A DNA stretch of 64,000 nt from Psammoneis japonica. Taxonomy: Eukaryota. The translations under genes and the position numbers were made by a program. A model generated the notes under the pieces. That model searched no databases, was not told the origin of the DNA, and was given only the letters and a program-made list of their open reading frames with translations. The stretch covers positions 186,001 to 250,000 of the forward strand of contig QPGO01000064.1 of the NCBI GenBank assembly GCA_008632985.1, read 5' to 3'. Each line of letters opens with the position of its first letter. The first letter of the stretch is position 1. Below, one piece after another: positions 20,088 through 54,083 of this stretch.

Positions 20088-23000
20088 CTTAACGGTGCTA
20101 TATACCGGTGTGCCATAAACGAAGCAATAACGAGCAAACAGCTTATTATTGTCGTCACGGCGGTGCCGTTGTAGTGCTTTGACCGACTGTGGCATTGTGT
20201 GCGTTGTGCGTGTGTGCGTGCTCCGTTACAGCGGTGTTTCGCGCATTGCCAGTCTCACGTTGCCTGCCGGCAGATGGATTTCGCACGACGTTTTGGAGGA
20301 CGACGCGACGGCGATCCTTCCTGCCGAATCCTCGCTGCATGCAATGCCATGAGCTGCAGGCCTGTCGAAGTCACAGTTGTCAGACCATGGTCGCGCCTCT
20401 CATGATTGTTGTGAACAAGGGCACAAGTGTGCAAACTGACAAGCTTGACAGAGCTGAATTTGGTCAACTGCTGCGCTGCTCTCGCATCAAAAGTTTGCCA
20501 GCAGGAATTGTTGGGCAATTGAAGTGACTCCAACTCCTTGCCCTTGATGGCTGCAAAAGTCTCAAAGAGCTGCCCTCCATGGGGGTTGAGCAGCTGAAGC
20601 AGCTGAGACACTGCTTGCCCCCCTTTGCAAGTGTGAAAGTCTCAAAGAGTTGCCATCGGGCTCTGGGCAGCTGCTGCAGCTGAGAAAACTTGACCTTCTT
20701 TGCTGCTGCAAAAGTCTTGAAGAGTTGCCAATTGCCAGATTTGTTGCAGCAGGGACAAACTTGGAGGAGCTGAGAGAGTTGTCGCCACTCTCTTGCTGAG
20801 TTGTCCCCTGGAATGCTGTGATGACAGCAGCTCTTGCAGCACGTCAGAGCGCGCAAAACACAGCGATCATCACACATCTTTTCATTGTGATTTTCGCTCC
20901 TTTTGCAGATGAATTTTTTGTGGTTTCAAACCTCCTCAGTTGCACAGCTGGCAATGACATGCCAACTGTGACAGATTGCCATTTTTTGTGCTGTGGGATC
21001 AGACCCCCACTCCCCATGAGGAAAATTGTTTCGCCGCGAAACAGGGACACGGCCCCGTTTTCCCTGTGAGAGTGCACCCACCCTCTGTCCCTGCAAATTA
21101 AAATCATTTGCATTGTGCCATGGACATTCTATTTTGTTGTTTACATTTTTAAATCAAATGATGCCGATGGAGACAACACCCCAGAGTCTGCAGCAGCAGC
21201 TGCAGCTTGCTTTGTTTGAGTGCCGCTGCTGGCAGCCACCTTGTTCATTGGCGCCAAAAAAGTGCAGAGTGCGTTGTGAGAGTGCAACGTGGATGAGCCA
21301 ACACCACCAACAGGAACGGCAACATGGGCTTGCCAGTGCATCTGGTGCTGCTGATTCTGGAACAGGTGCACTTGCAGCAGGAGCTGCTGTTTTGTTGTTT
21401 GAAGTGCCGCTGCTCTGCCCCACCTCATTCATTGCCAAAAAGAGCAAAACACATTGTGAGAGCATTGCATGGATGAACCAACATGACCCAAAGGAACGGT
21501 GACATGGACACACCAGTGTGTCTAATGCCGCTGATTCTGGAGCAAGCGAGTTTGCAGCAGCAGAAGTTTTGTTGCTCCTCTGATCTGCCTCGTTCATTGC
21601 CGAAAAGTGTGGAGCACATTGTGAGAGTGTGATGCAGATGAACTGACATGAACCGCAGCACACACTTGCTGGTGCATTGGTGCATCCGGCGCCACTGATT
21701 CTGGAGCAATGTGGGCATTGGTGTGCGGTGCAAGATGTTGAGGGTCAGCACCCAGCTCCACCCCTGCAACTCAAAGAAAACACAGAAAGAAAGCATGTGA
21801 GCAATCAAAAAAACATCTTGGGTGACACATGATGCACTTGCTGGAATGGCTGGGGGAACAAGCACCACCTGCATGTGTGCCACACTGTGCAAGGTGCTGT
21901 GTGAATGACAAAGTCACGCGGCAATGACTGAGTTCACCCTGCACCTCCCATGCTGCAGACAGGAGTTCATCGATGACATGTTTAGAGCATGGACCACAAA
22001 CAGCAGAGAGACTTGGAAGCCTTTAAAAATGAGCCCAACAACTCAGGCAACCTCCAGTGGGTTGCCTCCTCACTCTCCACCTCTGCAGTCTTTCTGGATC
22101 TGGACACAGAAATTGGAGAAGACAGATGTGATGCAAGTGAACACATCAAAAACAAGCGAAGCTCTTTTTGTGCATGCCTTTTTTGAAGAGTGTCATGTGT
22201 GGCAAAGAACTTTTCATGCATGTGATTCTGAGAGAGCTGCACCAGGAGCAAGCACTGCCTGCAGTCTTTCTGGATCTGGATGTGGAAATTGGAGAAGAGA
22301 CGGATGTGTTGTTAGCGAATTTGTCAAAAACCAATGAACCTCTTTTTGTGCATGCCTTGGCTTGTTTGAACAGTGCAATTTGTGGCAATTTGTGATGATT
22401 CTGGGTGCAAAACTCTGACATGTGCGATTGTGCCAATGCTGCAGAAAAGCAAGTTTGTGACATGCGTGCACACAACACACAACAACACGCCAGCAGCTCA
22501 GCATTCTGGGTGTGGCAGATTTGTGACAGCAAACTCGCGATCACGAAATTCAAGCTGCACCCAAATAAAACCCCATCTTGACCAACCAGAAGGAAAGCAG
22601 GTTTCACCATGCATTGAGCTGCTGTCATTGGCCAATGGGGCAAAATCTTTCACTGCCATGGCCGGCTGTCAATTTGCAGATTTGCAACCACACGCACTGG
22701 GATCCACGTGAATCACGACAGTGCACGCTCTTGTGCCCTGTGCATGCAATGGGCGACAAAAATGTGGATGTGCTTCAATTGCATCGTTGTGAAAATTATG
22801 AGCCAGTTTGCATGCGGAGAAATGGAATCATGCGAATGGGGAATCTTGTCAAACCAGCCATTTGCTCGCATTTTGGATCACACCAATCAACAGTGCATCC
22901 TTCTAGAATTGCCTGAGACATGGAGCCACGCCCTCCCATGGTTGTGCTTCCCAGGTGCGTGCTGACAATGCTGCGTTGCCATGCACAAGAGGCCATGCAC

Positions 23001-24766
23001 GGTCTCGCCGTGCTGTCCAGCACTGAGGCATGCTGCACTTGTTTTTCAAACTTTGGGGAGAGGGTGCACTGTTGTGAAGTGTGTGTAGAAAATTGCACAT
23101 GCAAAACACATGCTGAAAATGCCGCAGACCAACGGGCTTCGCAAATCTGGGAAACATGAAGAAAAATGAAGGTGGGTCACGTGCGTGCATGAAGTGCTGC
23201 AGACTGCACACGTGCAAAGAGACACACACACGTGAGGGAGGAGGACAAAGTTAAAACCAAGTTCAAGTTGATTGTGATCAAAAGGAAACCAAACCATGCA
23301 TCACAAAAAATGGATTTTGACCTCAACTGAGCAAAACATTGCGTGCATTTGATTGAAGCTTGTGCAAGAAAAGTCAATGGTGCATCAGATGAAATGCAAA
23401 AACAGCTTCATTTTGTTGAGCACTTTTGCTGGCATTTTTTAAATTCTGCTTGTTGACAACTTCAGCAGCGCACACAAAGGCCATTTTGAGTGCTCTCCAA
23501 CCACCAACAAGCTGCAGCTCACCAACATCTTAATCAGAGCCCACAAGAGAGCCTTGGGACTGGTCAAGAAGATGATTGGAGATGCTTGAGAGAGGAGGAC
23601 AGTGTTCTCATTGTGTGCGCTGTTCAATGACAAGAGAACACTGTGTCTCTGCACTGACACAAAGTTTCAACCAAAGGGGAAAAGAGTGGTCAACTCAGGC
23701 ATCACAGCTTGGGTGCCATGCGCATGATTTTAGATGCTTGCTGTGCAGCAACACTCTCCCACTTTAAAAAATGTGCTTCAGCCCCCACGCAGGACTCTGC
23801 ATGAGACATGGACCCATGGGGTTTTGCATGTGAGCTCTGCAGCACACAAAGTGGGTGATGAACATGTTTGTCTTTGACGTCCAAGTGAATGACCAAGTTC
23901 TTCTCATGGTGCAACTGTGCCTCTCAATCAATGCTTGCCACTTTTGACAGTGCACCTGCCTGCCCATCACAGAGCTCTGGAGAGATGCTGGAGAATCATG
24001 CTGCAGCACTTTGTAAAAAACATTGAAAGCTGTTGAGTGGATGATGGCCCAACAACTGTGCTGCAAAAATGACACAAAATGCCGCCAGAGCTGGAGAAGA
24101 TGTTGGTGGTGGGGGGTGCGGTGCCTCAATCCAAAATCAGGCAGGAGAGAATTGAAACACAAGCATCTCCCAACAGTCTCTTTTTTGTCATGTGAGGGAA
24201 CGCTGAAGAGATTGCTTCAAAGTCTGCAAAGTGCCAAGGGTGCTCCCTGTGAGCCTGTTTCGCAAGAGAAAGGCTCTTGTTTTTTCGGCCAACAGCACTA
24301 GAAAAGAGCAGCCAAGTGTTCCTCCCCATCCTCTCTGACACCACGCTGCTTTTCTGAGCAGTTTTCCAACCCAAGCTCTGTTTTTTTAATCTTTGCCACA
24401 CTTGTCCAGCCTTTAGAAGATTTGCAGGCTCCAACTCCATCACGGCACCCCGGTCCTCGTGACTGACAACAGGAGATTCACTCGTGACTGACTCAAGATT
24501 CTTTTCCAGATTTGGAAAACCAATAAACTCGGTGCACAAAGAGCTCGTCCTCGTTCAAATTTCAGTCCGTACAAACTCGCCGTTGAAAAGACCACGTGCC
24601 CATCACTTTTTCATACAAGACCCGAAAAAGCGGTCAACAGAGCTCGACAAGAAAGAACTGTTTCCCTTGTGGTACACTGCCTACGTAGAAATCACGTAGA
24701 AAGAGGGATTCGCATTGGGATGCATGTGCGCACCAAAATTTTCGGCGGTGCAAACTGTCCGTTAAG
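20088..24766. mobile_element. Putative degenerate DNA transposon bounded by short inverted ends CTTAACGG/CCGTTAAG; interior TpA/CpG-depleted
   Basis: CTTAACGG at 20088-20095 and CCGTTAAG at 24759-24766, with flanks ATGG/ATAG (possible 4-bp TSD with TA->TG). The ends coincide with the limits of the mutated block. No transposase recognised. Confidence 0.45.
20340..20830 (+). pseudogene. LRR gene fragment, degraded
   Basis: CSRIKSLPAGIVGQLK*LQLLALDGCKSLKELPS..CCCKSLEELP..LEELRELSPL; stops and frameshifts; no TpA. Confidence 0.7.
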
Positions 24767-26910: not shown

Positions 26911-28430
26911 TCAGTCCGACCCCATGTCGGTATCGCTGTCGTCCACGAGCGGTCGCTTGATGACAATTTTGGATCCCCCATCCTTTTTGCTTGTGGCTCT
27001 TGGTTTATGGTCCTCGAAAAAATCACTATCGTCGCTATCGTCCACGGATGGCCGTTTGATTACAATCTTGGATCCACCAGCAGCCTTTTTGCTTGTGGCT
27101 CTTGGTTTCTGGTTCCCGCCGGTGTCACTACTGTCATTGTCAGCAAGACGCTTCTTTACTGTAATCTTGGATCCACCAGTAGCCTTTTTGGCTGTGGCTT
27201 TCGGTTTCTGGTCCCATTTAATGTCTGCATCCGAGTCGTCGTCCATATCATCCATGTCGTTTGACCGGATTGATGGTTTGGATGCGCGCTTTTCGGAAGA
27301 GCTGTCGTCCATAATATCCATATCTGTTTCACTTGACGATTTCATCTTTTCATCCTTAGAGCCATCACTAGTATTGTTTGAGGAGCCCATCTTGTTGTTG
27401 CTGGTGTCATTGGATGATCCTTGATCGTCCCTATCGTCTTGTTCGAAAATGCCTTTTGCGTCCCACATTTCAATAGCCCCATTCAAAGGATTTCTTCGAG
27501 CTGTACTTGTTGCTACTGGTGACGCAAAACTGCCGCCATTGCCGTTTGTAGCTTTTGAACTTGACGACGATGCCTCGTCTAGTTTTCGTTTCTTACTTTT
27601 GGACGGTCCGGCTGCCAATCGATCCACCAAGTCTGGATCCAGCAGGGCATTGTCCAATTCGGAATCATGGTCACTCACATAATCATCCTCCTTGTAGTCA
27701 AAGGCAGAAGGCTTGTGTATGGAATTCTTGGCGGCGGATGAACTCTTGAGAGACTTGGCAATCTCCAGTTCTTGTTCCAGTTGCTTGATTTTGCGTTTGG
27801 CGGGTGCCAAATGCTTGTCCTTGAGTTCGTTAAACAAAACGAGAAAGCGTTCCATTTGTTCATCCTTTTCCGTCTGTACGACCGAATCCAGCTTTTCAAT
27901 TGTGGCGTGAGCCATTCGCAGGTTTTCTTCCAAACGAACAATCTTGTCTTGTAGGTTGGATACTTTCGTTTCCTCATGTGCAAGGCATTTTCCGAGTCTC
28001 AGCGGTAACAAGCTGCTCGTTTCTGTAGACGCATCTGCATCGTCGTTGTTTACAACAATCTTGTTCAATTCTCCACTCCATACGACCCGTACCAATCCAG
28101 CTGACGACTGGATCTGCTCCTTGACCACCATTTTGAGGGCATCGGGATTGGAATTTTTCAATGTAAAGGTTAGGGAAATCTCATCGTCTCGATGGTGAGA
28201 AGAGACAGCGGTGATTGCTTTTGCAAATCCATCACGCGTCCACTTTTCGCCCTTGACATGGCTCATAACGATTCTTTTGCAAAATCACAAGAACGAAGTT
28301 CTGAGCCATTCATAGGTGCAAAGTTAGAATGATTGTATGCCAAAGTCACTTACGTTTGTTGATACGTATCCATCCCAATCGCAATCATCACGTCGAACAA
28401 GTGAGAATCCTTTGAAAATGTCGCCATGAT
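26911..28430 (-). CDS. XRCC4-like NHEJ protein (5' exon uncertain) with three C-terminal KPxATxKKxxGGSKI repeats
   Basis: Beta-rich head, coiled coil, then QMERFLVLFNELKDK resembling the XRCC4 ligase-IV-binding segment; acidic disordered tail. Confidence 0.5.
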
Positions 28431-29281
28431 TCCTGATTTTTCGTTTTCTCCATCGATCTGCACCTTGATGGAGCAAGTACCCAAACAGTGTTCCGTCATT
28501 GTATTCGACACTCTATTGTTTAGCAGTAATCAATGAGATAAGGCAAACGACGACGGCAGGTTTCCCATCGTCGTGTTGTGATGCGTCGTTGGTTGTTGGT
28601 CGTGTGTTTCGCGCTAAATTATTACTGTAGAGTGCGCGAAACGTCAGAATTGCGCGTTGGCGAAAACCACAACTTTTTTTCTCTCCTCCCGCAGCCGCAC
28701 ATCCCGAGTTTTGCAATTGACGACGCTTTTGGCCTCAAACGGCGGCGAACAAGGCATCGGTAGAACCGTAATCATTGTAAGAACATGTGTATTGCTTTGT
28801 TTGTGAAAATCCGTAATGAATTCGTCGAGAAAAGTGAATCTCGTAGTTGTTTTGCGTGCAATTTCGCGTTGGGTGTTCCCGAGAACGCGATCACTTTTTC
28901 GATTTAGCGTTGTCCTTGTACGGAGAAACGCTGAATCGCAGCTTTGTTGTAACATGTATCTTGCCTATATGCTGGATCTTGGGATACATCTGTCTCGGCG
29001 TCACGACAAATCGTTTTATTGCTCATTTTTTGGCCGCTGCTGTGTGTTGTGTTTGCCAGAGCTCATTGTTGTTGCTTCAAAGAGGATCCGCTCCGGGCTG
29101 TCCAAGGCACGGAACGTCTCTTTATTGTGTTTAAAAGAGATTCGTTGCTTTGAATTTTTCAAAACGGGGATCTTGGCGTCGTGAAATCATCGCCAATCTA
29201 ACGGCATGTTTGCCTTTTTCTCGTCACTTGAAGTGCAGGCTTTGTCGAGTGTTGATTGTGGTCACAACCTTTCCACATCTC

Positions 29282-30820
29282 ATGGTGACAGCAGCTGAGT
29301 TGTTTGCTGCGGGGGAGGGTAACAATTTTGGAGAGGCACAAAGATGGGACATGACACATGGGGTTTGGGTTGCTCCCGGAGTTCGGCATTGCACGCACAA
29401 CAGGCCGAGTGCACCTGGACGGTGTGGTGGTGCAGCGCACGACGACAAGAAACTGCAGAAGGAGCATGTTGAGACTGCAATGGAAAAACTGGGGGACAAT
29501 GCGTGGCAGCATGCACAGAAGGATGGTGGGAAAATCCGTCTTCTCAAATCTGTTTGGGAAGAAGTTGATCAGATGTTTGGCCAGAGGATCAAGTGCAAGA
29601 CATTTTGTGACTGGTTTCACCACTGCCTTCAGCATGGTGAGACAAAAGCTGCCACTCACCGTAGAATGAACAGCTGGAAAAGGCGTCGCGGAGTGACAAC
29701 AAGAGCTGCATCATTTTCAGAGGCAGATGATGAAGTGCTGCTTGATGTCGTGAGAGAGAAGCCGCATCTCCATCTCGATGAAATGCAGCTTTCAATGAGA
29801 CGACGCCGGGGCATGACATGGCACCCCTCTGCCATGTGGCGTCAATTGCACCGACTGGGCTGCTCTCTTCAAAAAATGGTTTTTCGTTCAAGACAAAGAT
29901 GCGAGGCCAAGCAGGAGATGCACTTTCGACGGCTAGAGTTGTTCGTAGAAAAACCAGAGATGGCTGTCTTTGTTGATGAGATGGCAAAGAGTGCCAACGC
30001 ATCCAGGCGTTTGCGTGGCTGGGGAAAATTTGGCAAACCACCCGCAGTTGATGCACATTTTGAGGAAGATTTTTGCAAGAGGTGCACTGTGATTGGTGCT
30101 GCAGATGTGAACGATTTTGTGATCGAAGCGTGCATGCTGGCAGAACGTGAACATGGCCCTCATGATGATGACCCGGAACGTGGGGCTGTGGACATGGAAA
30201 GGTTTGAGAGATGCGTTGAGAATGATTTGGTGCCGGTTCCAGGGAGGTGTCATCTTTGCGAGCCGCGGTCTGTGGTGCTGATGGACAACGCATCGACACA
30301 CATCTCCGACTACGTTCGACAACTGATTGAAGATGCTGGAGCCAAGCCAGTTTACACAGCAGCTTGCAGCCCTGATTTGAATCCAATTGAGTGCTGCTTC
30401 TCTGTTTGCAAGTCCGGCCTGAAGCGTTTTTCTTATGAAGAAGGCATGAATTGGTCAATGGCGCACGAGCTGGCATTGGAAGAGATGACGCCACGAAAAG
30501 CTAGGAACCATTTTCGCAAGTGTGGGGCACCAGGGTGCGATGACAATCAGGAAAGGAAGACGGGGGATGCTGAGGAAGAATTCTTCCTCAGCTGTGTTGG
30601 AGGATTCAACACAGCCATTCGAGCAGCTGTGTCACACCAGACTGGACTAAAATGTGCAGTTGTGCTCCGTCTAGCCAATCCATCTAGAACGTGTGCGAGC
30701 AGCCATGACTGTAGTTTTAAAATGCCACCACACGTGGTTCATCTGCTGGCAGAGCACGGAGGCATCGGATGGTCCGTCCAGTCGATGACCAATCCATTTG
30801 CAGTGTGCGAACAGTCATGA
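29282..30820 (+). CDS. IS630/Tc1-family DD34E transposase, hypermutated (true start and stop uncertain)
   Basis: VFVDE ... VVLMDNASTH ... (Y>C)SPDLNPIE with 34 residues between D and E; HTH-like PHLHLDEMQ..WRQLHRLGCS. Confidence 0.9.
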   Translation: MVTAAELFAAGEGNNFGEAQRWDMTHGVWVAPGVRHCTHNRPSAPGRCGGAAHDDKKLQKEHVETAMEKLGDNAWQHAQKDGGKIRLLKSVWEEVDQMFGQRIKCKTFCDWFHHCLQHGETKAATHRRMNSWKRRRGVTTRAASFSEADDEVLLDVVREKPHLHLDEMQLSMRRRRGMTWHPSAMWRQLHRLGCSLQKMVFRSRQRCEAKQEMHFRRLELFVEKPEMAVFVDEMAKSANASRRLRGWGKFGKPPAVDAHFEEDFCKRCTVIGAADVNDFVIEACMLAEREHGPHDDDPERGAVDMERFERCVENDLVPVPGRCHLCEPRSVVLMDNASTHISDYVRQLIEDAGAKPVYTAACSPDLNPIECCFSVCKSGLKRFSYEEGMNWSMAHELALEEMTPRKARNHFRKCGAPGCDDNQERKTGDAEEEFFLSCVGGFNTAIRAAVSHQTGLKCAVVLRLANPSRTCASSHDCSFKMPPHVVHLLAEHGGIGWSVQSMTNPFAVCEQS

Positions 30821-33068
30821 CCAAAGTTTTGAAATGCCCCACCCACGCTTTGTCTGCTGGAGTGCGGAAGTGTCGGACAGTGCGTCTGCATCTTCCACCA
30901 CCAAGTGTAGAATGATTGGTTCTTTTGGTTTGTTGTTTTCATCTTTTGGCGCCGCGCGAAACAACTCCGCAATTGCAAGTGTCTTCAGCTCTTCCACCAA
31001 CCATGAAAGGACGCTTGTGTTGGTCAAAGAGTTCCAAAGGTGAATCTGCACCACCTTTTCTTTGCTGCGAACAGACCTCACAATTTCCTTTGACCAACTG
31101 CGAACATTTGCATCCATCAGTCTCCTGTTGTCGCAGATCTCGGTGCAAACAGTTTTGGTTGCTGAGAATGGAACCGAAATGCCCACGGTGCGTTCTGATT
31201 CCGTGTTGATCACATGGACAAACATTTCATCCGGAGCCAAAAAATGTCCACTTTTTGCTTCAGCCAGGGCCAGGACAGCTGCAGCTGCATCGACTTGGCC
31301 TTCCGCCATCCGTTCCATTGCTTTGTTCCTTCCCGCTTCATTTGCCACGTCCGGATCCTCACGGTGTGATTTGGGCAACCCGTTTCCTTGCACCTCATGC
31401 GCACCTCTTTGGATTGATCCGCCATGCCTGCCATCATCTTCGGTCATAGAAGGATGAACCTCTGGAGCCACGAGATCAATGTTCGGCCATGTGTCTGGCT
31501 TTTCAGGGTCCAGCTCACACGCCTCAAAAATGCACAACTGCCGTTCGCCGTCGATGGACATCCTGTTGCTCCAACACCGTCTGCATGCTTTCCAGTGTTC
31601 CAATGTGAGAGCATGACAAAAAGGGTTGCAATCAATGTCGGTGCCAACCAACTTTTTCATGAATTTGACAACTTCTCCAGGAGCCTCCGCGTCGAATTCT
31701 CACGTTTCTCTTGCAGTGCGGGGTTTCACTGCTTTCTCGGGAGAGAGCAGTGCTGCAACTCTGTCATCCTGGGAGCTGGGAATGGATGGTTCCTCATCAT
31801 CATCCCACGGCTCATCGGTTTTCTTCTTCTTTCCAACAGACAGACGAAGGAAGGCGCATTTTGGATCCCGTGCCTCAGGCGGTTTGCTTTTTGCCTTGAC
31901 ACGCCTGTGAGCTTCCAAAAACAAATGCTCAGCAGAGTTGAGAAGCTTCACTTGAGCTTTTGAAAAATCCTCCATGAGCAACAATGACGACTTCTTTCCC
32001 ACGCACGAGTTCCCATCTTTGTCCTTGTGCCGTTGATCCTCGACAGCCGCGCGCAACACAGTGCTGCACACGAGACTCCATTGAACCCTGCCACCATCAG
32101 CCGATGGTTCTAGAGTGGCAACATGCTGCGCGTCTTTCTTGTCTGCAACAACATGCGTTCCATCCTTGTTCGTTGCAGGAGGCAAAAGGCACAAGGCCAA
32201 TGACAGCTCTTCGTCTTGTGTTCCTCTTTTCCTGGACACTTGCCCCGTGCTTGTTCCGTCTTGAATGTTCCCAACAACACAGATCAGGTCTAGAACAACA
32301 CCAGAAGGGTCAGACTGACTCCCATCATCAGCCATGTCTCCTTCGTCGTCACAGTTCTTGTACGACACATGAGTCAGAGCATGCATCCAATGCGCCTCTG
32401 CAACCATGGGCGTTGCACGGCTTGAACCGCACTTGCCTGGAGGATCCGCCATCTGGGGGTCAGCTCTGCAGTGTGGCTTTGAGTTTGAAGTCTTGTGCGG
32501 CATCAGTTTCTTTCCTTCGGCAGAAAGGAGTGCGTCCAATTCTGACTCGACTTCTTCCATGGTGGAGCCAGTGCCGAGTGATGCAATCGACACCAAATCC
32601 TGCCCTCTGTTGGGTCCATCGTGAAAGTCAAACGGGGTGGTGAACTTGGGACTGCTTGTTTTTCGTTCATCGTGCAAGCACAACCCAACTGTGACATGTG
32701 AAGCATCCAGATCACAGATGGTGCACTCTCTCTTCCAAATCAATGGATGCATTGCCGGAATCTGAACGCGACCCGGGTGTCTTCTTGGATGACGATGATG
32801 ACTTTGAGCTTCTCGACCTGGAAGAGGAGGATTTCTTTCCCGATTTTTGTCTGTTGGCATTAGAGAAAATGCTTGGTGTTTTCAACAATGCGCCCGCATC
32901 GTCACTGTCTGGTGACAACGGGAGATCCAACCGGTGCTTTCTTCCACGGCTGTCACCGCGTTTCTTGCGGGCTCTGGCTTGGTCCTTTCTGTTCTCTTCA
33001 CCCAACCTAGCTTCCACTGTTGGTTGCCTCTTCCTAGATGAAGTTCGTTGAGAGATGGATTTCTTCAT
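30815..33068 (-). pseudogene. Second, convergent gene of unknown function inside the transposon (broken into three ORFs)
   Basis: Contiguous coding-like ORFs 32712-33182, 31700-32860 and 30815-31660 on the minus strand, with a basic N-terminus (MKKSISQRTSSRKRQ). Confidence 0.6.
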
Positions 33069-33885
33069 GGTGCCACGTGATGCAAAACCCACACTCAAGG
33101 AACGAGAAAAGGTAAACATGCCGTTAGAGCCATGACAGACAGATGCTGCGGCAACAACACCGACGATACACAACGATTTCACGACGCCGAGATCCCCGTT
33201 TTGAAAAATTCAAAGCAACGAATCTCTTTTAAACACAACAAAGAGACGTTCCGTGCCTTGGATGGCCCGGAGCGGATCCTCTTTGAAGCAACAACAATGA
33301 GCTCTGGCAAACACAACACACAGCAGCGACCAAAAAATGAGCAATAAAACGATTTGTCGTGACGCCGAGACAGACGTATCCCAAGATCCAGCATATAGGC
33401 AAGATATATATTACAATAAAGCTGCGATTCAGCGTTTCTCCGTACAAGGACAACGCTAAATCGAAAAAGCAATCGCGTTCTCGGGAACACCCAACGCGAA
33501 ATTGCACGCAAAACGACTACGAGATTCACTTTTCTCGACGAATTCATTACGGATTTTCACAAACAAAGCAATACACATGTTCTTACAATGATTACGGTTC
33601 TACCGATGCCTTGTTCGCCGCCGTTTGAGGCCAAAAGCGTCGTCAATTGCAAAACTCGGGATGTGCGGCTGCGGGAGGAGAGAAAAAAAGTTGTGGTTTT
33701 CGCCAACGCGCAATTCTGACGTTTCGCGCACTCTACAGTACACGCTAGGGGCCCTAGAACAGTGAGCAGGGTGAGCGCAGAGCTCTGCTCATTTTTTTTT
33801 CATTTATTTATTGGCGATCGATCCGGACACATTGTTTGTTTTCCCTTTTGAGTTTTGCTCGGCATTGTACTGTGTTGTATAATGA

Positions 33886-35295
33886 ATGATGATCCGCCCA
33901 GCACAGCTACTACAACACAAAAACGAACTCCATCATGACCCAAACTGGTTTCCCGGCACGATGAGGATTCGAAAATTGGTGCTCTTCATGTTGTGCATCT
34001 TCATCTTGTGCCGAGTACTGCTTTCAGTCTATGGCCCTCCTCTGATAGCCACAAGCGGAGAAGCCATATTATCTAACGATCCTACCCCTGAGTTACTGCT
34101 AAGTGTCCCTTTCTACGTCTACGAGGAGCTGGCGTGGGTCAACGCAACTTACGGAACGTGGCCAGTCAGCAAACATGCGTTACACTCCCGACATGAGCAG
34201 TACGACACTCGCTTCAACCACGGGGACGATTACTTTTTCATGAACGCGAGCTTGAACCACCCCATGCGGACTCGAAACGTTGACGAGGCAAAGTTATTCT
34301 TTGTCCCCTGGTTATATAATTATTTTGTAATGACTATCGCGTGGGGTCGTCAAAAAACAAACCATCTCTGTTGGAATGGTAGATGTGATAATGAACTGCT
34401 GAACTATTCCCAGAAAATTCTACGAGATTCTGAGGCCTTTCAGAAGTACCCAGAGCGTCACGTCATGGTACGGTCCCATTTTGCCTCGGCCGGGTTTTGG
34501 TCAACTGATTTTCACAACTTCACAGAAACACATATTCCAGGTTTGAACGAGCTTGTCGAGAAGACATCAGCAGTCATTTTTGAAGACGCGGAGCCAGAAC
34601 GGAAATCAGAAAATCAACAGTTTCTGCCTTCATACTATGTGGGATCGAATTGTGGTGACAATTCGTCCAAAGAAGAAAAGCGATATGATGTCGCCATGAT
34701 TGGCAGCATGAGAACCCCCGACCAACCACAGTTTGATGATCGACGAAATATATGCAAGTGGTTGGGCAACTCTTCCACTATCAAGACGTCGGTGTGTGGA
34801 GAGGGGTCCCGCTGTCCGGCTCTGTGCCAGTCCAAATTTGGATTCCATATCCGCGGTGATTCTTGGGGGAGCCAACGAGCAATGGATACGATCTTGAGTG
34901 GATCGGTACCAATATTTACTAATTCGCAGCAGTATCGAATTCTTGGCGACTGGATTGACTGGAACCAGCTCACTTACTTTTTTCCTATTCACGATGAGTC
35001 ATCTTATGGAGCCAAGTACAACGTGACTGGAGAAACTTTCTTGGAGAGGTTGCAAGACATAATCGATGACAAAGAGGGCTATGAACGCAAACACAAGGCG
35101 GTTTTGGAGAATGCTCCGCTGTTTGATTATACCACCGTATATCCATTTGATACTTATATGTATTTATTCCAAGCAAGGTTGTTTCCAGAAACCCGTCAAG
35201 CGAAGAGCAGGTGGAGTGCATTGAAGTTGCCACCTCTCGTACAAGGAGAAAATGGCAAGCCAGTCAACCAAAGGCTTCGAAATAACAATTCATAA
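33886..35295 (+). CDS. Exostosin-family (GT47) glycosyltransferase
   Basis: Type II TM anchor, PFYVY, HPMRT..EAKLFFVP, SKFGFHIRGDSWGSQRAMDTILSGSVPIF. Confidence 0.85.
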   Translation: MMIRPAQLLQHKNELHHDPNWFPGTMRIRKLVLFMLCIFILCRVLLSVYGPPLIATSGEAILSNDPTPELLLSVPFYVYEELAWVNATYGTWPVSKHALHSRHEQYDTRFNHGDDYFFMNASLNHPMRTRNVDEAKLFFVPWLYNYFVMTIAWGRQKTNHLCWNGRCDNELLNYSQKILRDSEAFQKYPERHVMVRSHFASAGFWSTDFHNFTETHIPGLNELVEKTSAVIFEDAEPERKSENQQFLPSYYVGSNCGDNSSKEEKRYDVAMIGSMRTPDQPQFDDRRNICKWLGNSSTIKTSVCGEGSRCPALCQSKFGFHIRGDSWGSQRAMDTILSGSVPIFTNSQQYRILGDWIDWNQLTYFFPIHDESSYGAKYNVTGETFLERLQDIIDDKEGYERKHKAVLENAPLFDYTTVYPFDTYMYLFQARLFPETRQAKSRWSALKLPPLVQGENGKPVNQRLRNNNS

Positions 35296-35599: not shown

Positions 35600-37500
35600 G
35601 CCCACAAACTGCAGAGCACACTGGCCACATGCCATGACCAGGAGACATCAGCATGGCACCATTTGAGGGAGTTGCACCCTGTGATCCACTGCCTGAACAT
35701 GTGGTGAAAAGTCCAATCCCATGCCATCAGCCAAACTCACCATCCACACATTCATGCAGCACTGCTCCCATGTTGTTGGTGGTGCTGTGAACTGCAGCAC
35801 CTGAATCTGCCACACACTCTCTCTCATCTTCCAACAGCTTCAATGAGGCAGGGGGGACTTGGTCCCTTCATTTCTGTGTGAAAGTGTCTCAACATTGGCC
35901 CCACCACCAGTGCTGGCTGCCCCCATCTTCTTGCATGACTGTGGTTTCTTTTTGCACCACTCCGCCACACCTTGCTGACATCATTGGGGTCAGCCCAGTT
36001 GTCAACCCCCCCAGCACAGTCAGTTGAGATGCCAGACTCAGTGAAGCCTTTGTGTTGCAAGGACGGCCATCAACCAAAATGGGGCTCTCTTTGTTGTCGT
36101 TGTTGTCACACATGGTGGCTTGGTCATTGATGTTGTCATTGGCATCATGATTGCCTGCTTCATTGTCAGCATCATCTCCACACAACTCATCTTCTGCACT
36201 GTCATCATCGTTGGATGCAGTGACAGTGAGATCATTTCTCACCTTGGACAGTGGCTGATTGCCATCTTCTGGAAGACATCCCTTGCAATGCTGCAGGTGC
36301 TTGGATTGGATGGAGTGATGCAATGATGTGAAGAACAGGGAGACTCTCACCTTTCACACAAGTGTTTGCACGGCTGCAATCAGGGCTGAGTGCACTGCAC
36401 CTGAGACTGAGACAGTGCCTCATTGACAAGGTGGCACACCGCGCAGTGGAGAACACCAGATTCTGTCTTGTCAGAGAGCTGCTGTGCTTCTGGCGCCAAA
36501 CTTTCCACCCTTGGAAGCCTCTCCTTGTTCTCTTGCCACCCCTGCACTGCTCTTTTGGATGCAGCTGAAATGCTTTGTGACCCTTCCTGTGGCAGCACAG
36601 CACTGTGCATCATCAGCTCCAGCCAAACTGACTTCATTGACTTCATTTTCTGGTTCTGAGACAGCACCACACATGGTCCTCCACAACTGCACCACACACG
36701 CTCTTGCATGCATTGCTCCTTGACTTCAACACATTTCCTTTGAGTCTTTGCTCAGTGAGCTGTGAGCACCAAATCACACTCTTTTGGCACTTTCTCAAAT
36801 GCAGCTGCAGTCAGCTCATCCTGGCAAATCTCAAAACTCATGGAGTTGTGCTTGTCCTCAACTCCACTCAACTGCTCAAACAACTTGCTTGGCATGTCTG
36901 TCTTCCCCATGATGGAGATTTTTCCCAGAGCTCTGTGCTTCACTCAACTGTTGAAATCAGGTCCTTTGGCATGTGCATCTCATGCATGGCCAATGCAATC
37001 TTGCAGGCCAGTCCTCTGGGCCAATCAGTGCTTTGGGACTTGCTTACCAATCCTGCCAATCCTTCAGTGGTGGGTGTTTGTGGTGGCCACAGCAATCCTT
37101 TTCTTGACTGCTTTTGCAGACTTTTCTCCATCATCAGTCATCTCATCCAAGGCTGCACTCTCAGAACTTGGCACATTGTCTGCCTCAACAGATGTGCACA
37201 AAGCTGAAGCAAATCCAAGCACATTTGCACAAGCACAACAAACAGAAGTGCACCCACCACAGCTGAAGAAACTTGCTGTGCCCCCTCTGAGCCTGTCAAA
37301 GGCAGCCCCTGTGTCAACAGGGCTCAGCACCTTTCAACGCAACTTTCTTCTGAAAAGTCACGCAGCGCAAGGCTCTCTTCCAACTTCTGTGTCCCAGCAG
37401 ACTTCCCCCCCCAGACTTCTCCTCATTGGGACCAAGCTGCAGTGCAGGATTTGCTCTCTGTGGGACTCACCATGTCATGGGGTTCACAACCAAAACTTCT
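35600..37500 (-). mobile_element. Older degenerate Ty1/copia gag-protease remnant
   Basis: WPRGLACKI..PKDLISTVE..PSKLFEQLS (gag), C..C.RKGHKA knuckle, VWVADSGAAVH protease motif near 35800. Possible PBS GGTT(A>G)TGAACCCC at ~37479-37491. Confidence 0.65.
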
Positions 37501-38573
37501 CTCCAACGTGGGTGGGTGAGCTCATTGCTGCTGGTGCCCTGCTTCGTTGCTGTTGACGATGATCCTGTGTCATTGCTGCTGTTGACGATGATGATCCTTT
37601 TGCTGAGGAGGAAGTTGCTCTGGTTGGCACAAGTGTTGAAGCAAGTGAGAAGCCAAACAATGGCTTGAACAGCCCACCAGATGTGGGAGCGCCAGTGGAT
37701 GATCCAGAAAATTGCATGGATGATGTGCTGCTGCAATGAGCAGAGGATGTCGGGATGATGTTGTTTTGTTTTGTTGTTCAACAGAGAGAAGGAGAGGGTG
37801 GAGGAGAGAAACCCTTGGCGCTGATTCTGCTTTTGCTGTTGATGACAATTCTGTTGCCAAGGAGGAATTCATTCTGGCAGCAGACAAGGAGCTTGGCCAT
37901 GCCTTGAATGACACGTGGCAGATGCGGGAGAGCCGGCGGACACAGCTTCTTTTGGAAGGAACCTGTCATGGTGGGCAATGATGGTCATTGCAACATGACA
38001 GCATTCTAGGAGAATGCAGAGTTTTGCCAGATGACAACGTTGATCCAGTGGATGTTGTCTTTGTTGTTGCAAAGAACGAGGAGAAAGCAGCCTGTTCTGT
38101 GCTGTCTCTTTGAGACCTGGGCCCGGAGCAACGCGCTGCGTCTTTTGTTTGTCTGCGAGTAAATCCAGCTGCCGAACAGGCTCAGCCACTCACAGTCTTA
38201 GTGCGACAGCGTGAACACAACCAACAAGATGCTTCTGGGCCTGTTGCAACTACAACAGATGCAACAAGTGAGACCGATTGGTGGTCATGGTCACTTTCCC
38301 ACCGATGCCACGTCACAGTCCCGCCACTTCAACTCACAGAGCGCACTGGACAGTCTCTGATGCATTGGATTTCACTTGGTCCCCTCGAAATGTGCCTGAC
38401 TCGTAAGGCACAATTCGATCCAATGCTGTGTTGGCAGTCCAACTCAAACAATCTTGACTTGTCAATCGACATAAAAACCCTTGCCAGGGAAAAGTCGCCA
38501 ATCCTCTGTGCATGGTGCAAACCCTCACTGGGGAAGAAACTCACCACCACTCCACGCATCCGTCTCAATGCGT

Positions 38574-44287: not shown

Positions 44288-45608
44288 GGTGGCACCTACA
44301 CCAGCAGGAAAACAGAGTCATGTGAGAAATCATAAATCAAAAGGATGTCTCGGTCTGTGTTGACGACAACACACAGCCATTGGAAGCATGGAGACTGGCC
44401 ATGTCTCCTCACTGCTTGTGCATTCACTGATGCCAGGCAACGATAATCATCATACACCCTTCGATCGACCGGCGTTCGTTGTCACAACCCTGCCACATTG
44501 GTGCGATCGTCTCTTCACAGTTGTTCAATGCTTTTCGTCAAACCAAACCTGAGTTGACGACTTGGCTCTGACAAAGCGAGTAAATCTAGCTGCCGAGTGG
44601 GCTCAGCCACTCACAGTCTTAGTACGATAGCGCGAATACAACCAATAAGATGCTTCTAGGCCTGTTACAACTACAACAGATGCAACAAGTGAGACCGATC
44701 GGTGGTCATGGTCACTTTCCCACCGATGCCACGTCACAGTCCCGCCACTTCAACTTATAGAGCGCACTAGACAGTCTCTGATACATCGGATTTCACTCGT
44801 CTGAAACTGGGCGTGTCGTGCGCACACCGCAAGGATTCATCAGCATCGATCACGCCATTTCTTGTTGATGCGTTCGAGTTGAACAAACGAAAACGCCAAC
44901 CATGACGAATGAAATTACCCACCGGATTTGTGGTTCGCTGAGGTCTCTCATCCCGAACGTAACTTCCATTGGTTGACCGCGGTGAAAAAAAAAAAACGAG
45001 TGCTCAGCGTCAAAATTTGCCTTGTGACAGATGAAGACATGACTGGTGAAATGTGTGTGACGGTGGTGTGCATGCAGCATGCATGCATGCAAGCAGTCTA
45101 CAATGCATCTATCCTCTGTCAATTTATTTGCCTGGGCCTGGGTTGTGCTTGTCTGACTCACCTGGTAACGGTTGCGAACGAAAAGAGTTCACGAGACGTT
45201 TTTTTTTGGAATTCCGATCAATGAGATCATATTACACCACAAAGCACAAAGCACGTTTCGACTGTCTGTCGAGGGCGGTTAAGCCAAAGCACGATTCGGC
45301 AGTCAAGGCTCACTGCTCGAATCAGAACTTTGAACCAAGCATGTCGAATGTAGAAGTGGCAGTACAAGCCCCAATCCTACGGCAGTCGAGTGACGCATTC
45401 AACATTCAAATAACAAGCACGATTCGCAACCATCCGCCGGTATAGTACCACCTGCCAGAACTTCACACAATTCCTGCTGAACACTGAACACCAAACTATT
45501 CGTAAGTACTTTCAAGGCAGATATCCAAACATGGCCGTATAGCTACACTCTTACATGACTAGTTTTCTGATATCTCCTTCGTCTGCAAGCACAGATTTTT
45601 GAACAAGA

Positions 45609-47604
45609 ATGAGTAAAAGTGGCACCGGTGGCTTTGCATTTGGAAGCGCAGACTTGGTGACGCTTGATCCCATCAAAGAAGACGAACTTTATGTTGTCGT
45701 AGAGGAGGATGTAATAGACGCCAAATCGGAAGTGAAACATGCCAAAGCCAAGACTGCCTCGTTGGCAGCCGCGGCAGAAAAGGATATGGCCGAGCTCGCA
45801 TCTCTTATTGGAAAACTCAAGACGAGTACAGCCAGCAAAAAGGAAAAGGAACGATACGAATCGCTGCATGCCAAGCTTGTTGAGCGAGTGGAGGAAGCAG
45901 AGAAATCAAAGCACAAGCTTTCCACCGCAGAGAAAAAGTACTATGAGACATCGACAAAGTTCAAGGAGAAGGAACTTCTTGTGGCTCTGAAAGCAAAAGA
46001 GATTAGGAGCGTCATTCGTGCCGTCTGCGCTGCCGAGTCTGTTGACTTGGCATTCCTTCTGGACTGCACGTCATCCATGTCCCCCCACATAAAGGCAGTC
46101 AAGCAACACATCAAGGACATTGTTCATCAAATTATGCGCACCAATGGAAGTCTCAAGATTCGCCTAGCCTTAGTGGGATACAGAGATTTCTGTGACAAAG
46201 GGGATCGGCTTGAGGTTCTCGACTTCGTCTCGTCGGTCGAAAGCTTTGAGGGCTTTGTGGACAAAATTGTGGCCAAAGGCGGCGGTGATACACCTGAAGA
46301 TGTGGCTGGAGCGGTACAAGAGGCTCACGCCCTAAGCTGGAAGCACCCAACGAGGGTCGTGTTTCTCATTGCTGATGCGCCGTGCCACGGAACTCGCTTT
46401 CATTCCAACAGCGACGACTATCCCAAGGGATCGCCTGGAGTTGACATTGAATCCGAGCTCAAGACGCTTGCTTCTCTACACGACGCTGAAGGCTCCATGT
46501 CACTTCATTTCGGCAAGATCAATGACTCCACGGACAAGATGATTGGTCGTTTCCGCAAAAGTGGAATTGACATTGAAGTTGTGCCAATTAAAGATGCTTC
46601 ATCCCTGACAGCATCTGTGACTCGAGGTGTCCGTAAGTCCATCTTCAAGACTATGTCTGTGACGGACAGCGGAATGAAATCAATGTCATTTGCGCCTATA
46701 GTGTCATCGGGGCGCTCTACGTCCTCGAAACGGTCTCTTTCGAGCAGGCTACTTCGTCGTCGTCGCAGTGACAGTGATGTCAGCCTCAAAGATTATAGAA
46801 TCTCGGAGCGGGTTCCAAGCGCACTCGAATGGAAGAAGCAACCGGCTGTTGCTGTGAAGGTCTTTCGTAACGAGAAGATCAATGACATTGAAGATCTTCA
46901 ACGTCCGATTGGAATAGGAATGCTGCGGTTCTCGGACAAGAAGCGCACAGACATTACCAAACTGTCGACCATGTACATGCGACGCGCTCCAAGGCCGTTT
47001 GCGGAAGGAGAAATTCGGCTAGCATATCATGCACAGCTTGCACGCACTGTTTCGGGCCTGAAAGCGGAGAGCAGCAAGATGGTGATGAAGTCGTTCAAGT
47101 ACAACGGAGATGGCCTCAATGATCGTGGACAGTATTTCAAGCAAATTGAAGTTTCAAATATTGCATACTTCCTCGCAAACATGTACAACAAATCCGAGTA
47201 TCGCCCAAGCCACTGCGGTCGAATTGCTTCCTGGAGTCGTGCGTGGTGGAAGAGGAGGCTGACGTGAATGAACGTAGTGGCAATCGTCGTTTTTGTGCGG
47301 AAGCTCCTCTCCCTACTGGCGGTTCCGAGTTTACAAGTATTCCAACAATACTGGACACTGGAATGAGGACAACCTTGATGAAACCCTTTTGCGTTTTTCT
47401 GAATTTACATTCATGATAACGCGCGAGTTTCTAATGGTGACAGACTTGCAGGGTGTTTGTAAAGATGGCGAGTACTTCCTCACGGACCCTGCAATTTTGT
47501 GCCAGGACTCCCTTCGTTTCGGTCATACGAATCTTGGTGAGGGTTTCATGAAAAAGTGTATCTATTCGACCCGTGCGTTGATGGCGGACAACGGGTGGCG
47601 TTAA
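45609..47604 (+). CDS. vWA-domain alpha-kinase (VwkA-like architecture); frameshifts at ~47230 and ~47330
   Basis: DLAFLLDCTSSM, GGGDTPEDV, LIADAPCHG (vWA). FAEGEIRLAY, KYSNNTG, VTDLQGV, LTDPAI, FGHTNLG (alpha-kinase). Confidence 0.9.
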
Positions 47605-48792: not shown

Positions 48793-49989
48793 GTTGAAAC
48801 GCGATAGTAATAGGGAGGTGCGGGTCGGAATCGATATCGAAAGGCAGTAAGGATCGGATTTGATTTGCAGCCGATGGAGCCGATGGCAGAGCGGGTTCTT
48901 ATGCCGCCATGTGGACTATGATGGCCATGGCCGATGCATGCGGTCATGGCACATGGCACGCGTGATAGCACGTGCGGGCGTGCGCGCAGCAGCAGGGCTG
49001 CCGCGGCATGTCTCAAGATCGCAATGCGGGCGTCACGTCATGTCATTGACCTTGACTTTGCTTGAACCTTGAATGTGCAGTGCCGGCAGATGCCAGGATC
49101 ATTGTGTGTGTGTGTGTGTGTGTGTGCTGACTGACAGTCACACCGGATTTTTCCAACCACAGCAGTCTATTTGTGCAAGTCACAACACCCCCACCTGATC
49201 ACCTGTGCCCTCTCACACACCACAACCTTGGCAGAGGTGCTGTTTCCTGCTGTTGTTGGGACTCAGCATCAAGAAATGTTGCCACCTTCAAAAGTGTGTC
49301 TCTGTTTCATGTCACACCCACCCAGCAGACGTGTTGATTGCCAGCTTCTTTGCTGCAAGCCTGCCAAAGGTCAAGTTGCACCTCACATCCTGTGCACCAA
49401 GCTCAGCACCTTGAGATTTCGGGCTGATGAGAGAACAAAAATGATGCCATTGAAGAGCTGCCTGTGCTCAGCTTTCACGTGTGTTGTGTTGTTTCTCTCT
49501 TTGTTCAGCTCAAATGCAGTTGGCTTGTGGAGCAACTTTGGCAACTTTCAAGTGGTGGAGAGGTTTGAACCTTCTCTTCTGGGGCCTGCTGTTTTGACCC
49601 CCTGCTCTAGAAATCATTTGGCACGCAGGGCGAGATGGCGCCATTCAATCATCTGCAGCACCCCAATTGATGATCTGCGCAGTTTTGTTTTTGTGCCATG
49701 GAGATCTGTTTTGGGAACCTGGGGAGGCATCTTTGGACCGAAGTGAGATCATCGAAGAGGCAGTCCAATTGCCAGTGCATTTGGGGGGTGTCCCAGCACA
49801 ATTTGTGCACACAAGAAAACACAGGATCTGTCCAGCTTTCCCAAATGCCCAATTGCACTGGATTGACAAACTCTTTAGTGTGCAAATTCCACGCAACTTT
49901 CTTTGACACTCTCACTTCCAAAGATGTCTCCCAGACCTTGGTGCGTGGCTTTCTCTGACATGTGGAGAGATCCAAAAACATCTTGGAGT

Positions 49990-51385: not shown

Positions 51386-51942
51386 CTGGGGGTTGATTGC
51401 TGAGTGGCAGCAGGTGAGCTGAACTTCAAAAAGCAACATGCTGGGAGAGTGCCAGGTGTGTGGAGTTGTTTTGCAGTGGCAAAACAGCTTGAGGAGGAGA
51501 GTGTGGAAATTGTTCTTTGCAACAGCATTTTTGAAAAAAAAAAAGAACTGTGGTCATGCATGGAGTTGGGTGTGCAGAGAATGCCCACCCTTCTCTCTGA
51601 CAAGAAGCAAATTGCCACTGGCACTCAGACCAGCATGGCATCCAAACAACCCTCTGCAATCTTCTGCAAAAGAAAAACTGGTGCACTCACAGTGCAACAA
51701 GGAAGAGCTGCACAGACAGCGGGCATGATTCAGCACCCACTGGCAGAAATCCACTGCTGCAGCCAAACAGAATGTAGTGTGCGCGAGCACAGACCAAAAC
51801 AAAAACACAAAATCACGTGTCACAATGACGTTGTTGGCCCAGATGACTTGACACCCCCAAATGGGTTTGCAGCGCATTTTTGCTGTCAATCAACAGCCTC
51901 AAAGTGGCGCTGAATGAAGCACACATTGACCCATGCTGCGAT

Positions 51943-53689: not shown

Positions 53690-54083
<394 letters not shown>

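What the first reader, a model, noticed from the sequence alone, without database searches (positions are those of the whole stretch)
28625..33738. Mutation gradient within one transposon: ends spared, core saturated
Seen: the outer ~220 bp of the two TIRs are identical and keep CpG and TpA. The inner ~340 bp differ at about ten sites, nearly all TA<->TG/CA or CG<->TG/CA (e.g. TTTATTGTAATATATATC vs TTTGTTGTAACATGTATC). The interior is nearly TpA-free. Likewise, the copia LTR nearest the kinase gene is the less mutated one. Inference: the insertion is young, the process is fast, and it follows a chromatin domain that fades toward genes rather than pairing homology alone.
Basis: partly seen in the sequence, partly recalled or inferred. 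Interest (0 to 1): 0.72.

Follow-up and report, generated by a model that had tools for sequence, protein, structure and literature searches.

The report
Transposon hypermutation stops short of genes
In this alga-like genome, transposons lose most of their TA steps to TG or CA after they insert, but the 200-400 bases next to ordinary host sequence are usually spared, which suggests the mutating process follows silent chromatin rather than sequence repetition.

Summary
Observation confirmed, though 'saturated' overstates it. The element is a 5.1-kb IS630/Tc1/mariner transposon (DD34E, TA target duplication). This copy keeps 14 of 14 TA sites in the outer TIRs, 22 of 36 in the inner TIRs and 25 of at least 127 inside. 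Sister copies carry TG or CA independently at the same sites, so the loss is TA>TG/CA, on both strands, after duplication and not inherited, at least about 370-fold above background. The neighbouring LTR family gives the test: in 8 of 8 pairs with unequal flanks the LTR beside TA-rich host DNA kept more TA, whether 5' or 3'. Host-abutting ends keep 62 of 71 sites within 200 bp, repeat-abutting ends 33 of 125; past 600 bp both keep about 17%. A third family repeats this. TIRs, the best-paired parts, are the least mutated, which argues against RIP-like homology. Two gene-adjacent ends are eroded anyway, TIR homogenisation occurs in the family, and chromatin and enzyme were not measured. The scan has noted TA erasure many times in this genome; a preprint reports it in Bigelowiella. 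The boundary rule is the addition.

The parts
28623..28624 (.). left TA target-site duplication
   Evidence: TA at both ends; read as TG and CA at the two ends of copy C242
28625..28847 (+). left TIR, outer zone: identical to the right arm, 7 of 7 family TA sites and 20 of 20 CG sites kept
28848..29188 (+). left TIR, inner zone: 10 of 18 TA sites kept
29189..33174 (.). interior: 25 of at least 127 inferred TA sites kept; 20 of 201 CG sites lost
29282..30820 (+). transposase frame, HTH_33 + DDE_3, DD34E; 9 of 13 columns with Tyr in at least half of the homologues read Cys or His here
30815..32881 (-). second, convergent reading frame, in two pieces here and one 798-aa stop-to-stop frame in copy C15; no Pfam match
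33175..33515 (-). right TIR, inner zone: 12 of 18 TA sites kept
33516..33738 (-). right TIR, outer zone: 7 of 7 TA sites and 20 of 20 CG sites kept
33739..33740 (.). right TA target-site duplication
26911..28427 (-). left host gene, reading away from the element; candidate ATG about 195 bp from it; intron 28274-28353; no Pfam match
33886..35295 (+). right host gene (Exostosin GT47), reading away, ATG about 145 bp from the element; the transposon sits between two divergent genes
38156..38378 (-). 3' LTR of the copia-like element, abutting a TA-erased block: 3 of 14 TA sites kept
44577..44799 (-). 5' LTR, facing the kinase gene: 14 of 14 TA sites kept
45603..47267 (+). host gene with vWA domain and a weak alpha-kinase match; upstream intron 45502-45594

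Best explanation
A host process changes A to G at TpA on either strand of transposon DNA after insertion (TA>TG or CA), prefers a pyrimidine 3' of the A, and works within silent repeat chromatin whose edge lies about 200-500 bp (one to three nucleosomes) inside an element wherever the element abuts active host sequence. Where an end abuts another erased repeat, the domain runs through and the end is mutated like the core. SHOWN: direction, independence among copies, strand symmetry, context preference, speed relative to background, and dependence of end-sparing on the flank in two LTR families. INFERRED: that the boundary is chromatin (CG methylation, H3K9me or H3K27me3, or lack of transcription) and that the chemistry is adenine deamination by a dedicated enzyme. 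This copy is spared at both ends because it lies between two divergent host genes.
For: Direction: C242 target duplication reads TG and CA; the two TIRs of this copy read CA and TG at sites 270 and 477, where derivative C2b has TA; 9 of 13 conserved-Tyr columns read Cys/His. Independence: 70 mixed TG/CA interior sites among three full copies, against 152 CG sites kept in all three; of 14 mixed sites covered by C2b, 8 are TA there and none CG. Strand symmetry: TG:CA 42:60, 52:45, 54:43, 23:31, none significant. Context: interior retention 54/100, 38/200, 6/148 for RR, RY, YY classes; 47/161, 52/287, 9/203 in the LTR family; only 1.03 of 7 outer-TIR sites expected kept at these rates. Flank: 8 of 8 LTR pairs with unequal flanks favour the TA-rich side, 2 at the 5' and 6 at the 3' LTR (sign test 0.008); 62/71 against 33/125 within 200 bp; 42/240 against 66/411 past 600 bp; fitted midpoint about 335 bp. 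Third family C61:125812-131038: 21 TA sites only in the gene-facing LTR, 0 only in the other, the 3 innermost sites mutated in both. CG loss leans the same way: 6/70 against 22/125 within 225 bp. Six duplicated, mostly gene-like stretch pairs at 81-90% identity stay TA-rich. Diatom TEs are CG-methylated islands overlapping H3K27me3/H3K9me (PMC9998398, passages).
Against: C15 downstream TIR keeps only 3/7 and 1/16 beside a TA-rich gene flank, and C36 upstream 4/7 and 5/18. The C63a 5' LTR has 4 TA beside a NudC-like gene. C242, inside an erased block, still keeps 6 of 14 outer-TIR sites against about 2 expected, so part of the TIR effect is intrinsic. C2b is largely TA-intact in TA-poor surroundings. 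The first 300 bp beside the spared window LTR hold only 2 TA. One 2.1-kb repeat pair inside a repeat region runs against the trend (C15:227019; 39 against 8 sites, flanks 3 and 14). The CG gradient in this copy is borderline (0/40 against 20/201, p=0.052) and is absent beyond 225 bp in the LTR family. Flank class was set by TA content, which is the same signal as the outcome. No methylation, histone or enzyme data.
Confidence: 0.62

Rival explanations
1. Adenine damage or misincorporation at TpA is genome-wide, but is repaired only in open or transcribed chromatin; the spared zone marks the reach of repair, not of a targeted mutator.
For: Predicts the same map. The largely intact derivative C2b is the copy whose unique junctions appear in run X2, whose contigs skip GT..AG introns.
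Against: Needs a TpA-specific lesion rate hundreds of times the background. In Bigelowiella the same signature appears in only 11 of 15 lines, which suggests a regulated activity. No strand bias in the interior.
Confidence: 0.15
2. RIP-like recognition of homology by pairing, weaker near the ends of the paired region and additive where repeats adjoin.
For: All measured elements are multicopy. Neurospora DIM-2-dependent RIP spreads from repeats into adjoining DNA (10.1101/115501, passages), so neighbouring repeats could reinforce each other. Homology could still nucleate the domain.
Against: The 566-nt TIRs have a near-perfect partner 4 kb away and twice the copy number, yet are least mutated. 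C2b has 320-nt identical inverted arms 1.2 kb apart with 18 of 18 TA sites kept. Sister LTRs with the same partners differ 14 to 3 and 23 to 2. Duplicated gene-like stretches stay TA-rich. The Bigelowiella hypermutable region is single copy.
Confidence: 0.1
3. The ends are spared for reasons intrinsic to the element: the outer TIR is a CG-rich promoter or transposase-bound, selected for mobility, and kept identical by conversion between arms.
For: Run X2 shows spliced joints starting at TIR position about 154. C242 outer TIRs are partly spared inside an erased block. Both C36 arms share a private change at 216, both C2b inner arms share six, and this copy's left arm has the right-arm letter at position 10. 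A cut-and-paste element may have been mutated at an earlier site.
Against: Cannot explain the LTR result, where sparing follows the flank and not 5'/3' identity. Outer-TIR retention ranges from 2/7 to 7/7 among eight ends of identical origin. Conversion equalises arms but needs one arm already intact.
Confidence: 0.1
4. The TA-poor interior was inherited from a founder and the pattern is old family structure.
For: 4 of 14 erased sites at 567-971 have the same state in all four close copies; 5 conserved-Tyr codons read TGC in all four; this copy and C36 agree at 10 of 13 sites.
Against: 70 mixed sites; most shared states lie in contexts that favour that outcome; the five private non-YR markers of this copy that C36 covers are not shared with it; LTR pairs are identical at insertion (established knowledge) yet differ one-sidedly.
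Confidence: 0.03

Closest known systems
TpA-specific hypermutation of integrated NCLDV and virophage DNA in Bigelowiella natans (Mettrop et al., bioRxiv 10.64898/2026.01.13.699255)
   Same: A>G and T>C at TpA on both strands, confined to foreign DNA, far above background; their TpA-depleted CDS are enriched for DDE and reverse-transcriptase domains.
   Different: Other lineage; here seen on DNA transposons and LTR elements, to about 80% loss. The parts of the preprint that I read report no boundary rule, no 3'-pyrimidine preference and no dependence on the flank. Their rate is measured, mine is inferred. Their supplement (mutation list) was not seen and could already show the context preference.
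Repeat-induced point mutation (RID and DIM-2 pathways) of Neurospora
   Same: Dense transition mutation of repeats at a preferred dinucleotide; one branch depends on heterochromatin (10.1101/115501, passages).
   Different: Opposite polarity (RIP makes TA from CA/TG); RIP hits closely spaced repeats strongly and the DIM-2 branch spreads outward, whereas here the closest repeats are spared and mutation stops inside the element.
CG methylation of diatom transposons by DNMT5 and deamination of 5mC
   Same: TE-confined islands (PMC9998398, passages); CG loss of about 10% per copy is seen here.
   Different: Explains CG>TG/CA only, not the roughly 15-fold larger loss per site at TA.
IS630/Tc1/mariner DNA transposons
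   Same: TA duplication, TIRs, HTH + DDE_3, DD34E.
   Different: Long 564-nt TIRs and a second convergent frame; best homologue 46% identical; not placed in a named subfamily.
ADAR or APOBEC editing of retroelement intermediates (recalled)
   Same: Clustered transitions in a dinucleotide context.
   Different: A DNA transposon has no reverse-transcription step, changes are strand-symmetric, and a target-site duplication and sister LTRs changed after insertion.

Membership tests
IS630/Tc1/mariner transposon | TA target-site duplication | tested here: met
IS630/Tc1/mariner transposon | terminal inverted repeats | tested here: met
IS630/Tc1/mariner transposon | DDE/D transposase with N-terminal HTH | tested here: met
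   DDE_3 E 1.8e-16, HTH_33 E 0.002 (below cut-off); D232, D335, E370, spacing 34
Bigelowiella-type TpA hypermutation | A>G / T>C at TpA | tested here: met
Bigelowiella-type TpA hypermutation | both strands of genomic DNA | tested here: met
Bigelowiella-type TpA hypermutation | confined to foreign or mobile DNA | tested here: met
   window composition; duplicated gene-like stretches TA-rich
Bigelowiella-type TpA hypermutation | rate about 1000-fold above background | tested here: inconclusive
   relative lower bound about 370-fold per base from copy divergence; no direct rate
Bigelowiella-type TpA hypermutation | acts on single-copy DNA; active in a subset of lines | not testable with these tools
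   all elements measured are multicopy; no lines
Bigelowiella-type TpA hypermutation | shared enzyme (ADAT2-like proposed, not shown) | tested here: inconclusive
   9 PF00383 matches in the genome, not examined further
Fungal RIP | C>T at CpA | tested here: not met
   opposite polarity
Fungal RIP | duplicated sequence as such is mutated, closely spaced repeats strongly | tested here: not met
   TIRs least mutated, C2b arms intact, duplicated gene-like stretches intact
Fungal RIP | RID/DIM-2 dependence, premeiotic timing | not testable with these tools
   needs mutants and crosses
Editing of a retro-intermediate (ADAR/APOBEC type) | one-strand bias, fixed through reverse transcription | tested here: not met
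   DNA transposon affected, symmetric; sister LTRs differ
Heterochromatin-limited mutation | mutation boundary coincides with the boundary of 5mC / H3K9me / H3K27me3 | not testable with these tools
   only the CG-loss proxy, weak

The most novel reading that the evidence does not exclude
A dedicated double-stranded-DNA adenine deaminase (target TA followed by a pyrimidine) is recruited by silent chromatin, not by homology, and disables transposons soon after insertion while active promoters hold it one to three nucleosomes away. It would be a genome defence shared by diatoms and chlorarachniophytes, and TA loss would be a permanent record of heterochromatin boundaries readable from sequence alone.
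Probability: 0.35. Interest if true: 0.9.

Novelty: new variant of a known kind. Interest (0 to 1): 0.68.

Why it matters
How the TpA hypermutation described in one alga chooses its targets is open; the authors offer RIP-like, RNA-guided and epigenetic options without a test. Sister LTRs and TIRs are built-in controls, and they show here that the same sequence is erased or spared according to its neighbour. That favours chromatin state over homology, gives a length scale (about 200-500 bp) and a motif (TA + pyrimidine) to compare with methylation and ChIP profiles and with candidate deaminases, and warns that LTR-divergence dating and TE annotation are distorted in such genomes. A natural enzyme that edits A to G in double-stranded DNA would also interest the base-editing field.

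Tried and rejected
5' LTR promoter protection: rejected, 6 of the 8 spared LTRs are 3' LTRs. Sequence context as cause of end-sparing: rejected, 1.03 of 7 expected against 7 of 7. Natural experiment in the internally deleted copy C36 (central sequence moved near an end): 9 of 23 kept against 7, 4 and 4 in the full copies, not conclusive. Allelic empty site of the DNA transposon: the left flank has 1 match in the assembly, and no joint across it is listed, whose tables are cut; no conclusion. No RNA holder listed; X1 and X2 are one sample of one study and may be the source of the assembly. Parts without cover in X2 are not used. Spread of mutation into flanks: the empty and filled LTR alleles agree, but those flanks hold only 1 and 2 TA, so there is no power. 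Deaminase family search gave 9 matches and names no candidate. PDB search of the transposase: 1 match, E 0.16. De novo scan of 583 kb found 12 direct and 0 inverted pairs under my filters. My first reading of the LTR target duplication as 5 bp was wrong; it is 4 bp. My starting guess that the interior loss was mostly inherited was wrong. Literature: searches found no paper on TpA hypermutation of diatom transposons (0 papers with all four terms); PMC12543289 passages held nothing on repeat edges. Scan look-ups for the gradient idea returned nothing.
Full report
What is there. Window 28623-33740 is an IS630/Tc1/mariner DNA transposon: TA duplicated at both ends, inverted arms of 566 nt including that TA, and a transposase frame with DDE_3 and a weak HTH_33 match, DD34E spacing and 32 homologues up to 46% identical. 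It lies between two host genes that read away from it, with start codons about 195 and 145 bp off. The label 'diatom' comes from earlier scan notes and my impression; I did not test it. 'Copia-like' rests on gene order and recalled motifs; Pfam gave no match for those frames.

The observation. The two arms differ at 12 bases, all at position 226 or further in, at 10 sites of which 6 are TA-type, 3 CG-type and 1 other. The interior has 25 TA in 3986 nt, 6.3 per kb against 41.1 in gene-rich parts of the window. The LTR facing the kinase gene has 14 TA, its sister 3; 11 TA sites and 3 CG sites are lost on one side only, one site is mutated in both and one difference is of another kind.

Direction and independence. 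The genome holds two more full copies (C15, C242), an internally deleted one (C36), a rearranged derivative present twice (C2b, C53), a diverged full copy (C2a) and fragments (19 and 22 matches). In the three close full copies 70 interior sites read TG in some and CA in others, and 47 more keep TA in at least one; CG sites are mostly kept (152 in all three, 48 lost in one or two), so the mixed sites are not former CG. C2b confirms this where it reaches: 8 of 14 mixed sites are TA there, 4 TG or CA, 2 other, none CG. The target duplication of C242 reads TG and CA, and 9 of 13 columns with Tyr in at least half of the homologues read Cys or His here, 1 Tyr, 3 other. Agreement between copies at doubly mutated sites is 6/13, 7/12, 10/13, 7/12, 9/14 and 8/12, near chance given context bias. 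So each copy lost most of its TA steps itself; some shared inheritance is not excluded. TG and CA outcomes are balanced, so both strands of DNA are hit. An A followed by a pyrimidine is the fast target: retention is 54/100, 38/200 and 6/148 when neither, one or both strands offer that context, and 47/161, 52/287, 9/203 in the LTR family.

Speed and age. Full copies differ at 17-18 of 3983 interior bases outside TA/CG steps, with 2-4 transversions, while losing about 80% of at least 127 inferred TA sites. That is at least 1.6 events per TA step against 0.0022 per base, about 370-fold per base, a lower bound. In run X1 a contig joins 38150 to 44799, the empty site of the LTR element, with 0 other letters in 496 flank bases: the left block was already erased when the element landed, and the sister LTRs diverged one-sidedly since. 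A contig over the left host gene differs from the window at 13 of 1105 bases, more than the background between transposon copies. X1 may be the assembly's own sample.

The gradient in this family. This copy keeps 14/14 outer-TIR, 22/36 inner-TIR and 25/127 interior sites; context predicts 1.03 of 7 outer sites. Across eight ends the outer zone keeps 7, 7, 7, 3, 4, 2, 4 and 7 of 7. C242, inside an erased block, is low at both ends (4 and 2), but C15 downstream (3/7, 1/16) and C36 upstream (4/7, 5/18) are low beside TA-rich gene flanks. A cut-and-paste element can carry mutations from an earlier site, so this family is an imperfect test. Arms are also homogenised at times: C36 shares a private change in both arms, C2b's inner arms are identical with six private changes, and this copy's left arm has the right-arm letter at position 10.

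The cleaner test. LTRs are identical at insertion and do not move. The search gave 41 matches, of which 30 came as loci; 22 of these form 11 pairs. In the 8 pairs whose flanks differ by 10 or more TA in the first 600 bp, the LTR on the TA-rich side kept more TA every time, 2 of them 5' and 6 of them 3' LTRs (two-sided sign test 0.008). Two pairs with both flanks poor are eroded on both sides (7 and 6, 5 and 4). One pair with both flanks rich has an eroded 5' LTR (4 against 9) beside a NudC-like gene. Site by site, using the 14 of 30 loci at 89% identity or more, 5 classed by me as host-abutting and 9 as repeat-abutting from flank TA counts: 62/71 against 33/125 kept within 200 bp, 35/92 against 38/167 at 225-600 bp, 42/240 against 66/411 beyond. 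A sigmoid fit puts the midpoint near 335 bp, only slightly better than an exponential. Sites in one copy are not independent, so the pair-level test is the safer one. A scan of 583 kb of further sequence found 12 direct-repeat pairs. One is a clear third family: the gene-facing 438-nt repeat keeps 23 TA sites over its outer 395 nt, the other keeps 2, and the three innermost sites are mutated in both. A 130-nt pair agrees (0 against 5); three pairs with poor flanks are low on both sides; one 2.1-kb pair inside a repeat region disagrees (39 against 8); six pairs at 81-90% identity lie in TA-rich, gene-like sequence and keep many TA in both copies (open frames checked for one cluster only).

Activity rather than distance. 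C2b keeps 18/18 inner-TIR sites on both arms although its surroundings are TA-poor. Run X2, recorded as 'DNA?', has contigs that skip GT..AG segments at 45502-45594 and 28274-28353, so it behaves like RNA; two of its loose ends match C2b's unique junctions letter for letter, and its TIR contig has 12 differences, the count only C2b's downstream arm gives among 11 arms. Another X2 contig covers 44826-45395, reaching 27 bp from the spared LTR. These are hints from one sample; contigs give no strand, start or level.

Mechanism. Most likely a TpA-directed A>G mutator acting on genomic DNA inside silent repeat chromatin, held 200-500 bp back from active host sequence (0.62). Uniform damage with repair limited to open chromatin gives the same map (0.15). 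Homology pairing fits badly because the best-paired parts are least mutated (0.10). Intrinsic TIR protection with conversion contributes but cannot explain the LTRs (0.10). Chromatin and enzyme are inferred. CG loss, a proxy for methylation, leans the same way within 225 bp (6/70 against 22/125; 0/40 against 20/201 in this copy, p 0.052) but not beyond.

Known work. Mettrop et al. (bioRxiv 10.64898/2026.01.13.699255; I read abstract, introduction, results, discussion and conclusion; not methods or supplements) measured TpA-only A>G/T>C hypermutation in integrated viral DNA of Bigelowiella natans, including a single-copy region, and found DDE and reverse-transcriptase domains among TpA-depleted genes. 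PMC9998398 (passages) describes diatom TEs as CG-methylated islands with H3K27me3/H3K9me. 10.1101/115501 (passages) shows RID-type RIP confined to repeats and DIM-2-type RIP spreading outward. PMC12543289 (passages) added nothing. Other papers were seen as search listings only. Searches found no report of this process in diatoms or of a boundary rule; the library lacks most subscription papers. Earlier scan notes report the TA erasure many times in this genome and gave me the preprint; they are unchecked AI notes, not support.

Verdict. Real and replicated in three element families. The mutation process is a new variant of a kind described once; the dependence on the neighbouring sequence is the new constraint and is directly testable. 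Interest 0.68.

Noticed in passing
window 38156-38378 and 44577-44799; loci L030-L059: This LTR family ends in CG...CG with a 4-bp target duplication instead of the usual TG...CA with 5 bp (usual form recalled); most copies show CG directly after the aligned LTR end.
   Followed up: partly
L023:3615-5852 (G000:C2, near 900114-902351) and L024 (C53): Rearranged derivative with 505-nt inverted arms 1.2 kb apart, inner 320 nt identical, largely TA-intact inside TA-poor DNA, with junctions present in the RNA-like run X2. Could be a hairpin-RNA source against the family or simply an expressed escapee.
   Followed up: partly
window 28777-29238 and 33304-33586: X2 joints skip GT..AG segments that begin at TIR position about 154, so the outer TIR may hold a promoter and first exon in some copy.
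   Followed up: no
window 30815-32881 (-): Second convergent frame carried by the transposon, 798 aa stop to stop in C15, no Pfam match. TA loss removes TAA/TAG stops, so long frames in erased DNA can mislead.
   Followed up: partly
L020:7411-7413 (C15 copy): One end of C15 lacks the TA duplication and the other TIR has a deletion of about 52 nt; the copy may be rearranged or moved after mutation.
   Followed up: no
window 20600-24300, 35600-38100, 49100-54500: Older blocks lack both TA and CG (CG obs/exp 0.03-0.4), whereas the two young elements keep most CG; CG loss is slower and may date blocks.
   Followed up: no
TIR positions 198, 216, 268, 425 and interior: Many differences outside TA/CG steps are also A>G or T>C, possibly off-target work of the same process (135 of 270 in the LTR family).
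   Followed up: partly
L070-L128: 227 of 583 one-kb bins have 12 or fewer TA, so about two fifths of the sampled DNA looks erased.
   Followed up: no
window 51943-52680 and 50017-53435: 390-bp near-perfect tandem duplication and a ~190-bp satellite with inverted segments, all TA-free.
   Followed up: no
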